Shown here one piece after another: positions 31,134-34,047 of a DNA stretch of 64,000 bases. The stretch comes from the human T2T-CHM13v2.0 reference genome, Homo sapiens: the NCBI GenBank assembly GCA_009914755.4, contig CP086569.2, forward strand, positions 20,608,001 to 20,672,000. The letters are read 5' to 3'. A program made the position numbers and the translations under genes. The notes beneath the pieces are model-generated. The model saw only the letters and a program-made list of their open reading frames with translations, made no database searches and was not told the origin of the DNA. The stretch's first letter is position 1. Each line of letters opens with the position of its first letter.

Positions 31134-31292
31134 CGCCAAGATACATTTTGGGCACCTCCAGATGCCTCTGGGGATTTCAGGAAGGGGTGGTAACAAGCAG
31201 AAGATGTGGTAATTGTCATCACAGCCATCACAGAAAAGAAGCTTATCATCTTCATCCCCACGGGAGCATACTTGGCAAATATATGAGTCAAT
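31134..31292 (-). CDS. KDM5D: KDM5D coding exon 8 ([56 protein letters not shown] finger 1)
   Basis: Acceptor ctag|ATTGACTCA; donor TTGGCG|gtaaga; 159 nt. It has the Cys4-His-Cys3 PHD spacing. Confidence 0.88.
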
Positions 31293-32007
31293 CTACCAAA
31301 AAAAAAAAAAAAGTAAAAAATTTAGCTGCTTGTTCCCTGACACCTTATCGCAGGTTTCTAGACCATTCATGAACATCTATCATTAGTCAATAACTATACA
31401 GTGTTGTATTTATGAGCTTACTACCTAGTGCAAACTATGACAGGAAATAATTACACTATAATACAGTAAGTTAATAAAGAAACCATGGGGGCAAAGTAGA
31501 CTTTTTATAGAGGTTCAACGGCGTAAACAAAAATCATAAAGGTATAAAGCAGCATAGATCAGAGAATTACATAGTTAAAAATTTATCTGGCACAGAGGGC
31601 AAGTTGAACATAAAAAGGTCAAGTGACCGAATATCCAGTTATAGTTGTTCCTCTGTTGAAAAGTTTGATAGACATATACTTTCATTATAAAGGGTTATCT
31701 TAGATTAGATGATGAATTATAAATAGTCACTCAAGTAGTATGTCACAGAAGAGAAACATGAAGCAAAGGCTAAATAACTTGATTCTTACATACTATTGAA
31801 AAAAATCTAGTAATAATTACCAGTTTAAAAAGAAAACGCAGTGGTAAGATTTTTAGCAGGGTACACTTACATTTTGAAAAAATTACCTTCAATAAGTAGG
31901 ATGGGCTTTTCTACAAGAATCTAGAAGTAAACTGATCAATAAAGAGAAAATTTTAAAGATAACTCAAGAGCAGAAGAAACTGTGTGAAAATATAAATATA
32001 TTTTTAA

Positions 32008-32110
32008 ATATATATACACACAAACATACACACACAAATTATATGTGTATATATACATATATACATGCATATATACACATACATATGCACGCATATACAC
32101 ACATGCATAT
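32008..32110. repeat. (CA)n/(TA)n-rich imperfect microsatellite
   Basis: tatatacacacaaacatacacacacaaattatatgtgtatatatacatatatacatgcatatatacacatacatatgcac…. Confidence 0.85.
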
Positions 32111-32139
32111 GACAAATCAGAATATTTATAAACATAAGA

Positions 32140-32445
32140 GGCCAGGTGCGGTGGCTCAAGCTTGTAATCCCAGCACTTTGAGAGGCCAAGGTGGGCAGAT
32201 TGCTTGAGCTCAGGAGTTCACGACCAGCCTGGACAACAAGGTCAAACCTCATCTCTACTAAAATAAAAAAAAAAAACTAGCAGGGTGTGGCGGCTTGCAC
32301 CTATAGACCCAGCTACTTGGGAGGCTGAGGCAGAAGAATTGCTTGAACCCTGGAAGCGGAGGTTGCAGTGAGCTGAGAGCGCACCAGTGCAGTCCAGCCT
32401 GGGCGAGAGCGAGATTCCATCTCAGAAAAAAAGAAAAAAATTCAA
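32140..32445 (+). mobile_element. Alu, + orientation
   Basis: ggccaggtgcggtggctcaagcttgtaatcccagcactttgagaggccaagg… A-tail. Confidence 0.9.
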
Positions 32446-32499
32446 CAGAATTATCAGGAAAAGGTTTCATAAAATAAAAATCTTTTAAACTTATGAAAG

Positions 32500-33260
32500 A
32501 TGCTCAATATAAAAAACTGTAAACCAGGGAAATGCAAATAAAAATTACAATGAAATACTACACACCTCCCAGAATGGCTAAAATGAAAACAAAACTGTCA
32601 ATTCTAAGTGTTAGTGAGGACATGTGGTAACCAGAACTGGCATCCAATACTAGCTGATAAACTCGTCAATCATTTGTAAAAACAGTCTGACAATAATCCA
32701 CTAGTGAAAATATACATAGTCTCAGTCACAGCAATTCTATCCTGTCTATCTAGGTAACAGAAATGTCTACATACGTTACCTAGAAACATATACTTTAATA
32801 TCCACAGAATTACTTGAAATAGCCAAAAATTGGTAACTACCAAAAGTTGAATGGTAAAACAGATAGAAAAAAAGCTATGCCTAACAAAACTACACTTAAT
32901 AGAACACAAGCGTGAGCATTAATAGAACCATATAAATGCATTTTTTGAACCACTAAAAGAAGAAGCCAATACAAAAGAGGTGATTAATTGAAAGTACACG
33001 AACAAGTAAAAGTAATCCAGATATTTTTGTGTATGGGTGATACACAGAAATAAAAACAAAAGCAATGGAATGAAGTTAACTACTAGCTGTAAGGGTTAGA
33101 AAGTAGTGATCAATGACTCCTACACTTCCAGACTGATGACAGCTCTACCTTGTGTCTATAAAATGCAAAACAGTGAGACAAGTGGGAACAGGACAGTGGT
33201 AGTAAACATGATCTCCCAATCATCAGGTGGAAATGACTAAGAGAAACACAGGAATTTGCA
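32500..33260 (+). mobile_element. Old L1/LINE fragment (3' region), + orientation
   Basis: gaaatgcaaataaaaattacaatgaaatactacacacctcccagaatggctaaaatgaaaa…, an L1 ORF2 MQIKTTMRYH-type remnant. Diverged. Confidence 0.5.
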
Positions 33261-33901
33261 GCTCAAAACAGAAGTCTGTTTGAGAACAAAATTTCTGGAA
33301 ACATCATTTACATAAAGGAAAGGCAAACAAAAATTATCAAAACAGGGTGAGATTAGCTAAAGAGTAAGGAGGAAGGTAGGAATTTTTGTCTTTTTTTTTT
33401 TCTTGTAGTGCAGACTTAAATATGTAAGACATTATAAAAATCTTCCAAGTGAGATGTAGAAAGAATAAAAGAAGATGTAAACATACAAGGGACAAAAGTA
33501 AAAGAAGATAATAGAAAACTGTCACTACTATATGAAATGTGATGATTTGAGAGTCTGGAGGAATTTGCCAAAAACAAATAAACAGCTCTTTAACATAATT
33601 TATATTGGATCACATTATCTCCTATATTAAGCTGTAAAAGTTCAGAAAATGCTAATAGAGTTGAAAAACAGAGTATAGTTTGGTGAAAAGTTCTATCTAA
33701 AAAGACATAAAAATTTTGCTTTTGACTTTAGCTATCTTGAAAACATTTCCTCCCATTTCTAGCCACCCGTCTCTTCAGATAAAAGGGCTCATAAATAAGA
33801 AGAAAGAAGGAAGAAAAAAAGAAAAGTATGATGAATTCATTTTAGGTTCAATATAATCTTGACGGTTCAAAGTAGAATATTACAAAATCATGAGTCCTTA
33901 C

Positions 33902-34047
33902 AAACTGGGCACTGCTGTGATTCTTTCGAAGTTGCATGGTTGTCTTAGTGCAGGGCTCTAGGCTCAAGTGCTGCTTGAGCAATGTTGATGACACGTTCCC
34001 ACCTCCACTTTGCTCATCCTTCACCGTAACAGTTGGGGGGCATGTGA
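33902..34047 (-). CDS. KDM5D: KDM5D coding exon 7 (V-TCPPTVTVKDEQSGGGNVSSTLLKQHLSLEPCTKTTMQLRKNHSSAQF)
   Basis: Acceptor tccctag|TCACATGCC; donor TTT|gtaagg; 146 nt (2+144). It matches the minus ORF 33848..34066. The last codon Phe begins the FIDSYICQV epitope. Confidence 0.85.

What the first reader, a model, noticed from the sequence alone, without database searches (positions are those of the whole stretch)
31269..33904. The HLA-A2 H-Y minor histocompatibility epitope FIDSYICQV is encoded across the exon 7/exon 8 splice junction
The last codon of exon 7 (TTT at 33902-33904) plus the first eight codons of exon 8 (31292 down to 31269: ATT GAC TCA TAT ATT TGC CAA GTA) encode FIDSYICQV. This is the SMCY-derived male-specific peptide classically described as the HLA-A*02:01 H-Y antigen; the KDM5C counterpart differs (FIESYVCRM as I recall it). 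The match independently confirms the Y-copy identity. It also shows the epitope exists only in the spliced mRNA, not as a contiguous genomic string.
Basis: partly seen in the sequence, partly recalled or inferred. Interest (0 to 1): 0.6.

Follow-up and report, generated by a model that had tools for sequence, protein, structure and literature searches.

The report
Known H-Y epitope spans KDM5D splice junction
The window holds the Y-linked gene KDM5D (SMCY), and its well-known male-specific transplant antigen FIDSYICQV is indeed encoded with its first residue in exon 7 and the other eight in exon 8; this is correct but is ordinary, already-annotated biology.

Summary
On the minus strand, exon 7 ends ...CAG TTT (33904-33902) followed by GTAAGG. 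Exon 8 begins at 31292, after a T15 tract and TAG, with ATT GAC TCA TAT ATT TGC CAA GTA (to 31269). Spliced, this reads FIDSYICQV. The nonamer is not contiguous in any of the six genomic frames, and the in-frame codon before exon 8 is a stop.

The junction does not depend on my gene model alone. The deposited sequence of human JARID1D/KDM5D PHD finger (PDB 2e6r) reads [19 protein letters not shown]... straight across it.

The window contains the whole KDM5D coding region: 26 coding exons, ATG at 43084, stop ending at 4545, 1539 aa. The epitope is residues 311-319. The gene is the Y copy: it is identical to the two JARID1D PDB chains, differs from the JARID1C chains, and also carries the HLA-B7 H-Y peptide [11 protein letters not shown].

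One qualification applies. Exon 7 gives only Phe-1, which the X copy shares. All four X/Y differences, both HLA-A2 anchors and the modified Cys are in exon 8.

This is already known and of low interest.

The parts
4545..43084 (-). Complete KDM5D (SMCY/JARID1D) coding region. It has 26 coding exons and all introns are GT-AG. The spliced ORF is 4620 nt, giving 1539 aa. Domain order is JmjN, ARID, PHD1, JmjC, KDM5 C-helical domain, zf-C5HC2, PLU-1.
   Evidence: tblastn exon mapping is.
33902..34047 (-). Coding exon 7 (146 nt, start phase 1), encoding residues 263-311 and ending ...NHSSAQF.
33902..33904 (-). TTT codon for Phe311, which is P1 of the epitope. It is the last codon of exon 7 and the junction is phase 0.
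33896..33901 (-). 5' splice site of intron 7, GTAAGG.
31293..33901 (-). Intron 7, 2609 nt, 33% G+C. Reading through from exon 7 hits a stop after 18 codons.
31293..31320 (-). 3' splice site of intron 7: TTTTTTAC, then T15 (31298-31312), then GGTAG. The terminal TAG is in frame with exon 8, so it acts as a stop just before Ile312.
31134..31292 (-). Coding exon 8 (159 nt, phase 0 at both ends), encoding residues 312-364. It contains the entire PHD1 zinc finger (C317-C361).
   Evidence: The Pfam PHD match covers 317-361.
31269..31292 (-). Codons for P2-P9 of the epitope, IDSYICQV (residues 312-319). This stretch holds all four positions that differ from KDM5C (P3, P6, P8, P9) and both HLA-A2 anchor positions (P2 Ile, P9 Val).
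   Evidence: The X/Y peptide comparison comes from PMC3960116.
31275..31277 (-). TGC codon for Cys317, which is P7 of the epitope. It is the first zinc-ligand cysteine of PHD1 and the only cysteine in the peptide, so it is the residue that Meadows 1997 reports as post-translationally modified.
   Evidence: The title of Meadows et al. 1997 is quoted.
33882..33886 (-). Cryptic in-frame donor TTT|GTAATA, 18 nt downstream of the real donor. If used, it would insert VRTHDF and still place a Phe before IDSYICQV.
8063..8095 (-). The second SMCY H-Y epitope, [11 protein letters not shown] (HLA-B7), residues 950-960. It is contiguous within coding exon 19 (8001-8359).
   Evidence: The peptide is listed in PMC3960116 and PMC3123304.
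42935..43084 (-). First coding exon, with the ATG at 43084-43082. It is embedded in a region enriched for G+C and CpG (about 43000-43800, CpG observed/expected 0.8-1.15), consistent with the promoter.

Best explanation
The window carries the Y-linked histone H3K4 demethylase gene KDM5D (SMCY/JARID1D) on the minus strand. Splicing coding exon 7 to exon 8 at a phase-0 junction creates codons 311-319, FIDSYICQV. Phe311 comes from exon 7 and Ile312-Val319 from exon 8.

This nonamer is the classical HLA-A*02:01-restricted H-Y minor histocompatibility antigen. It sits at the N-terminal edge of the PHD1 finger, and its P7 Cys317 is the finger's first zinc ligand.

Shown here:
- the gene structure and the junction;
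- the peptide and its position at 311-319;
- the Y rather than X identity of the gene;
- the published status of the peptide and of its X counterpart FIESYVCRM.

Inferred from established immunology:
- KDM5D protein made in male cells is degraded, and the nonamer is loaded on HLA-A2 through P2 Ile and P9 Val.
- Female T cells are tolerant only to the KDM5C version, which differs at P3, P6, P8 and P9, so they recognise the Y peptide after sex-mismatched transplantation or pregnancy.

The exon-spanning layout is a consequence of the conserved KDM5 exon structure and has no special mechanistic role.
For: - Sequence and junction.
- Best-scoring splice combination: among all in-frame GT/GC-AG combinations free of stops, 33902/31292 scores highest against a KDM5C probe.
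- Independent confirmation of the spliced sequence: PDB 2e6r, human JARID1D, is identical to the model over residues 305-385. That span covers the exon 7/8 junction and also the 8/9 junction.
- Intact gene: an unbroken 1539-aa ORF over 26 GT-AG exons, with the full KDM5 domain set.
- Y versus X: the ARID region is identical to JARID1D chain 2yqe over 93 residues and differs from JARID1C chain 2jrz at multiple positions. The JmjC region differs from JARID1C chain 5fwj. The model is about 86% identical to my recalled KDM5C sequence.
- Second SMCY epitope: [11 protein letters not shown] is present at residues 950-960.
- Literature: PMC3960116 Table 2 gives HLA-A2 [11 protein letters not shown] and HX FIESYVCRM. 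PMC3123304, PMC3125305 and PMC2193344 with its Meadows 1997 reference agree.
Against: Nothing contradicts this explanation. The remaining gaps are as follows.
- No transcript or RNA-seq data for this exact sequence were available.
- The species cannot be established with these tools. Identity to human PDB chains over about 175 residues would not exclude a great ape.
- Official exon numbering was not retrievable.
- A cryptic donor at 33884 cannot be excluded as a minor isoform.
- Antigen processing and HLA binding were not tested here.
Confidence: 0.97

Rival explanations
1. The junction lies elsewhere. An alternative donor or acceptor is used, so the mRNA does not read FIDSYICQV, or reads it in a different context. 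The main candidate is the cryptic donor at 33884, which would give ...[17 protein letters not shown].
For: One search lists other in-frame, stop-free combinations. Donor 33884 (TTT|GTAATA) with acceptor 31292 scores 395 against 411 for the chosen pair. Donor 33911 (GC) with acceptor 31292 scores 383.
Against: - PDB 2e6r reads [14 protein letters not shown] with no insertion.
- Homology to KDM5C and KDM5A runs up to the Phe and resumes exactly at the next residue.
- The chosen donor GTAAGG fits the consensus better than GTAATA, and the other alternatives use GC donors or delete conserved residues.
- Even the 33884 donor would preserve the nonamer.
Confidence: 0.02
2. The locus is not the functional Y gene. 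It could be KDM5C, or a KDM5D-like pseudogene or duplicate, in which case the peptide match would not reflect an expressed antigen source.
For: No expression data for this window were available, and the window's chromosomal origin is not given.
Against: - All 26 exons are intact with GT-AG introns and no stops. The product is 1539 aa with every KDM5 domain above the Pfam threshold.
- The model is identical to both JARID1D PDB chains and differs from the JARID1C chains.
- Both SMCY-specific H-Y peptides are present in their Y form.
- There is a CpG-rich region at exon 1.
- The presence of introns excludes a processed pseudogene.
Confidence: 0.01
3. The nine-residue identity is a chance match that appeared because exon ends were chosen freely.
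For: None beyond the general freedom a reader has when picking splice sites.
Against: - Eight of the nine residues are contiguous in one exon.
- The ninth is fixed by the only consensus donor that keeps the frame and the paralogue alignment.
- The chance expectation is about 2e-12 per position.
- The same 60 or more residues are present in the JARID1D PDB entry.
Confidence: 0

Closest known systems
Human KDM5D / SMCY / JARID1D (UniProt Q9BY66 from memory; PDB 2e6r PHD1 and 2yqe ARID)
   Same: The model is identical to both deposited JARID1D chains over residues 305-385 and 79-171. The product is 1539 aa, which matches the canonical isoform length as I recall it. It has the same domain set. FIDSYICQV lies at 311-319 and [11 protein letters not shown] at 950-960.
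   Different: No difference was detected. Full-length identity to the reference protein, and the species of origin, could not be checked because no mammalian reference proteome or genome was available in the tools.
Human KDM5C / SMCX / JARID1C (PDB 5fwj, 2jrz), the X-linked gametologue
   Same: KDM5C has the same exon layout, judging by where the tblastn HSPs break. It has the same domains and is about 86% identical in protein sequence. The homologous nonamer starts with the same Phe-Ile.
   Different: The X nonamer is FIESYVCRM, which differs at P3, P6, P8 and P9 (PMC3960116). There are many further substitutions in the ARID and JmjC regions.
HLA-A*02:01 H-Y antigen (Meadows et al. 1997, Immunity 6:273)
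   Same: The amino-acid sequence is exactly the same. The single Cys at P7 corresponds to the modified cysteine named in that paper's title.
   Different: Nothing differs. The exon-spanning encoding is simply a genomic detail that is not emphasised in the papers I could search.
Minor H antigens that are generated by splicing itself (ZAPHIR/ZNF419, ACC-6)
   Same: In both cases the peptide depends on the mRNA splice pattern.
   Different: In ZAPHIR and ACC-6, a polymorphism changes splicing and that change creates the antigen (PMC3125305). Here splicing is constitutive and identical in the X and Y copies. Immunogenicity comes from X/Y amino-acid divergence within exon 8, not from the junction.

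Membership tests
KDM5 (JARID1) histone demethylase gene | Domain architecture JmjN - ARID - PHD1 - JmjC - C5HC2 zinc finger - PLU-1. | tested here: met
   In one search every domain scores above the Pfam gathering threshold: JmjN 15-48, ARID 82-165, PHD 317-361, JmjC 491-607, KDM5_C-hel 611-665, zf-C5HC2 697-749, PLU-1 762-1090.
KDM5D (Y copy) rather than KDM5C (X copy) | Sequence identity to the JARID1D protein, and divergence from JARID1C. | tested here: met
   The model is identical to JARID1D chains 2e6r and 2yqe. JARID1C chains 2jrz and 5fwj differ at multiple positions, for example K109R, I120V, H142N.
KDM5D (Y copy) rather than KDM5C (X copy) | Carries the Y forms of both SMCY-derived H-Y peptides. 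| tested here: met
   FIDSYICQV is at 311-319 and [11 protein letters not shown] at 950-960. The X forms are FIESYVCRM and SPAVDKAQAEL (PMC3960116).
KDM5D (Y copy) rather than KDM5C (X copy) | Location in the male-specific region of the Y chromosome. | not testable with these tools
   No mammalian reference genome is available, and the window's origin is not given.
HLA-A*02:01-restricted H-Y antigen | Peptide sequence identical to the published FIDSYICQV. | tested here: met
   One search compared.
HLA-A*02:01-restricted H-Y antigen | Encoded by an expressed, correctly spliced transcript. | tested here: met
   This was tested indirectly. The deposited human JARID1D protein sequence (2e6r) spans the junction with identical residues. 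No RNA data for this window were available.
HLA-A*02:01-restricted H-Y antigen | Binding to HLA-A2, natural processing, and recognition by male-specific CTL. | not testable with these tools
   This is taken from the literature only. The P2 Ile and P9 Val anchors fit the A2 motif according to established knowledge.

The most novel reading that the evidence does not exclude
The duplicated TTT|GTAA motif 18 nt into intron 7 (donor at 33884) might be used as a minor alternative 5' splice site. That would produce a KDM5D isoform with a six-residue insertion (VRTHDF) immediately upstream of PHD1. The isoform would still contain FIDSYICQV but with a different N-terminal flank, which could alter proteasomal or aminopeptidase processing of the H-Y epitope.
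Probability: 0.04. Interest if true: 0.15.

Novelty: already known. Interest (0 to 1): 0.08.

Why it matters
The result matters little beyond confirming the annotation. It identifies the window securely as KDM5D, the Y copy.

It also gives a small practical reminder. An epitope that spans a junction is invisible to six-frame translation of genomic DNA, so searches for epitopes or immunopeptidome spectra must use spliced models.

For this antigen the consequence is minor. All X/Y-discriminating residues, both HLA-A2 anchors and the modified cysteine are encoded in exon 8 alone. Exon 7 contributes only a Phe that KDM5C also has.

Tried and rejected
- The 5.8-billion-protein search returned only short PHD-containing fragments, mostly avian KDM5C-like or unnamed. 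It returned no full-length mammalian KDM5D. It was therefore useless for exon mapping or for identifying the species.
- Because of that, I used human KDM5C recalled from memory purely as a tblastn probe. All conclusions rest on the window's own sequence and on PDB chains, not on the probe.
- My first automatic junction choice, scored against KDM5C, gave 1545 aa. I re-examined two downstream junctions, 17/18 and 24/25, and replaced them with combinations that have better splice consensus: 13902/9022 and 5344/5190. These give 1539 aa. Neither change affects residues 311-319.
- Literature searches found no paper that discusses the exon-spanning layout or the residue numbering. I tried 'SMCY + epitope + exon junction', 'SMCY + 311-319' and exon counts.
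- An Rfam scan of the whole window found nothing.
- Alternative splice combinations were considered and rejected.
- Chance, KDM5C and pseudogene were considered and rejected (see the rival explanations).

Full report
**Observation**

I read both claimed exon edges on the minus strand. Exon 7 ends ...CAC AGC AGT GCC CAG TTT, with TTT at 33904-33902, and is followed by GTAAGGA. The other end of the intron reads TTTTTTAC-T15-GGTAG, ending at 31293. Exon 8 then begins at 31292 with ATT GAC TCA TAT ATT TGC CAA GTA, ending at 31269.

Joining TTT to these 24 bases gives FIDSYICQV. TTT is in frame with the rest of exon 7, which reads ...MQLRKNHSSAQF. Exon 8 continues [53 protein letters not shown].

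A six-frame search of all 64 kb finds only the 8-mer IDSYICQV as a contiguous string. The in-frame codon just before it is the TAG of the acceptor.

**Is the junction right?**

I enumerated all GT/GC donors near the end of exon 7 and all AG acceptors near the start of exon 8. I kept those that preserve the frame without a stop, and scored the products against a KDM5C probe. The pair 33902/31292 is best, at 411.

The runner-up, at 395, is a cryptic donor 18 nt further on (TTT|GTAATA, exon ending at 33884). It would insert VRTHDF and, curiously, still place a Phe in front of IDSYICQV. The remaining options use GC donors or delete conserved residues.

Independent of any model, the deposited sequence of the human JARID1D PHD finger (PDB 2e6r) reads [23 protein letters not shown]... 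It matches the spliced model residue for residue over 305-385, that is, across the 7/8 junction and the 8/9 junction. KDM5A and KDM5C homology also breaks and resumes exactly at this point.

**What the locus is**

A tblastn with a recalled KDM5C sequence, used only as a probe, lit up 26 colinear blocks on the minus strand from 43084 down to about 4570. Refining the splice sites gives 26 coding exons with GT-AG introns throughout. The uninterrupted ORF is 4620 nt, or 1539 aa. The ATG is at 43084 and the stop ends at 4545.

Pfam finds JmjN, ARID, PHD, JmjC, the KDM5 C-terminal helical domain, zf-C5HC2 and PLU-1, all far above threshold. The first coding exon sits in a stretch enriched for G+C and CpG, consistent with a promoter. 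The claimed exons are therefore the 7th (34047-33902) and 8th (31292-31134) coding exons. I could not look up official exon numbering.

In this model FIDSYICQV occupies residues 311-319.

**Y copy or X copy?**

Several lines agree that this is the Y copy.
- The ARID region is identical to the JARID1D chain 2yqe over 93 residues. It differs from the JARID1C chain 2jrz at several positions.
- The JmjC region differs from the JARID1C chain 5fwj.
- Overall identity to the recalled KDM5C is about 86%.
- The other SMCY-derived H-Y peptide, [11 protein letters not shown] (HLA-B7), is present in its Y form at residues 950-960. It is contiguous within exon 19 at 8095-8063.

**Literature**

- PMC3960116 Table 2 lists HLA-A2 HY peptide FIDSYICQV and HX peptide FIESYVCRM. 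It also lists HLA-B7 [11 protein letters not shown] with X form SPAVDKAQAEL.
- PMC3123304 and PMC3125305 call it SMCY.A2.
- PMC2193344 cites Meadows et al. [quoted passage not shown]

**Anatomy and mechanism**

The X and Y peptides differ at P3 (D/E), P6 (I/V), P8 (Q/R) and P9 (V/M). All four positions lie in exon 8, as do the canonical HLA-A2 anchor positions P2 (Ile) and P9 (Val). The peptide's only cysteine, P7 (Cys317, TGC at 31277-31275), is also in exon 8.

Cys317 is the first residue of the Pfam PHD match (317-361). It is also the first cysteine of the C4HC3 pattern, which makes it the first zinc ligand of PHD1. Exon 7 contributes only Phe311, which KDM5C shares.

The statement that the epitope exists only after splicing is therefore literally true. 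However, the junction plays no part in male specificity. It is a phase-0 boundary that, judged by where tblastn homology to KDM5C breaks and resumes, is shared with KDM5C.

The steps from protein to T-cell recognition are inferred from established immunology and the cited papers, and were not tested here. These steps are degradation, HLA-A2 loading, cysteine modification, and the lack of tolerance in females, who express only FIESYVCRM.

**Comparison and novelty**

This is the known gene and the known antigen. It differs from minor H antigens in which splicing itself creates the antigen, such as ZAPHIR/ZNF419 and ACC-6, where a polymorphism alters splicing (PMC3125305). Here splicing is constitutive.

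My searches found no paper that highlights the exon-spanning layout. Even so, it follows directly from public annotation.

**Limits**

- No mammalian genome or transcript resource was available, so the species, chromosomal location, official exon numbers and actual splice usage are not directly shown.
- The large protein search returned only fragments.
- Two downstream junctions (17/18 and 24/25) were chosen on splice consensus and on the resulting length of 1539 aa. They remain slightly uncertain, but they do not affect the finding.

Noticed in passing
window 33882-33904 (minus strand): The motif TTT|GTAA occurs twice, 18 nt apart (TTTGTAAGGACTCATGATTTTGTAATA). The second copy is an in-frame cryptic donor. 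If used, it would add VRTHDF and still yield F+IDSYICQV.
   Followed up: partly
window 8063-8095 (minus strand), coding exon 19: The HLA-B7 H-Y epitope [11 protein letters not shown] (SMCY residues 950-960) is also in the window. Unlike the A2 epitope, it is contiguous within a single exon.
   Followed up: yes
window 39868-40038 (minus strand), coding exon 4: This exon is exactly 57 codons and is phase 0 at both ends. It lies inside the ARID domain. Skipping it would give 1482 aa, which matches a shorter KDM5D isoform as I recall it from memory. I did not verify this.
   Followed up: no
window 13902-13915 / 9022-9044 and 5335-5344 (minus strand): There are competing in-frame splice choices at junctions 17/18 and 24/25. 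The pair closest to KDM5C gives 1545 aa. The pair with better splice consensus gives 1539 aa (...GQVAR|MDTPQ... and ...GKGS|DLELL...).
   Followed up: partly
window 49868-50473 (minus strand): A 201-aa ORF about 7 kb upstream of KDM5D matches the Exo_endo_phos and endonuclease-reverse-transcriptase Pfam families (E = 2e-8). It is most likely a fragment of a LINE-1 ORF2 endonuclease.
   Followed up: partly
window 19862-30321 (intron 10) and 9023-13901 (intron 17): These two introns, about 10.5 kb and 4.9 kb, account for much of the gene's length. Their content was not examined. One 171-aa ORF at 24473-24988 on the plus strand has no Pfam match.
   Followed up: no
window 32049-32111: A short, imperfect AT/AC-rich tandem repeat lies inside intron 7.
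   Followed up: no
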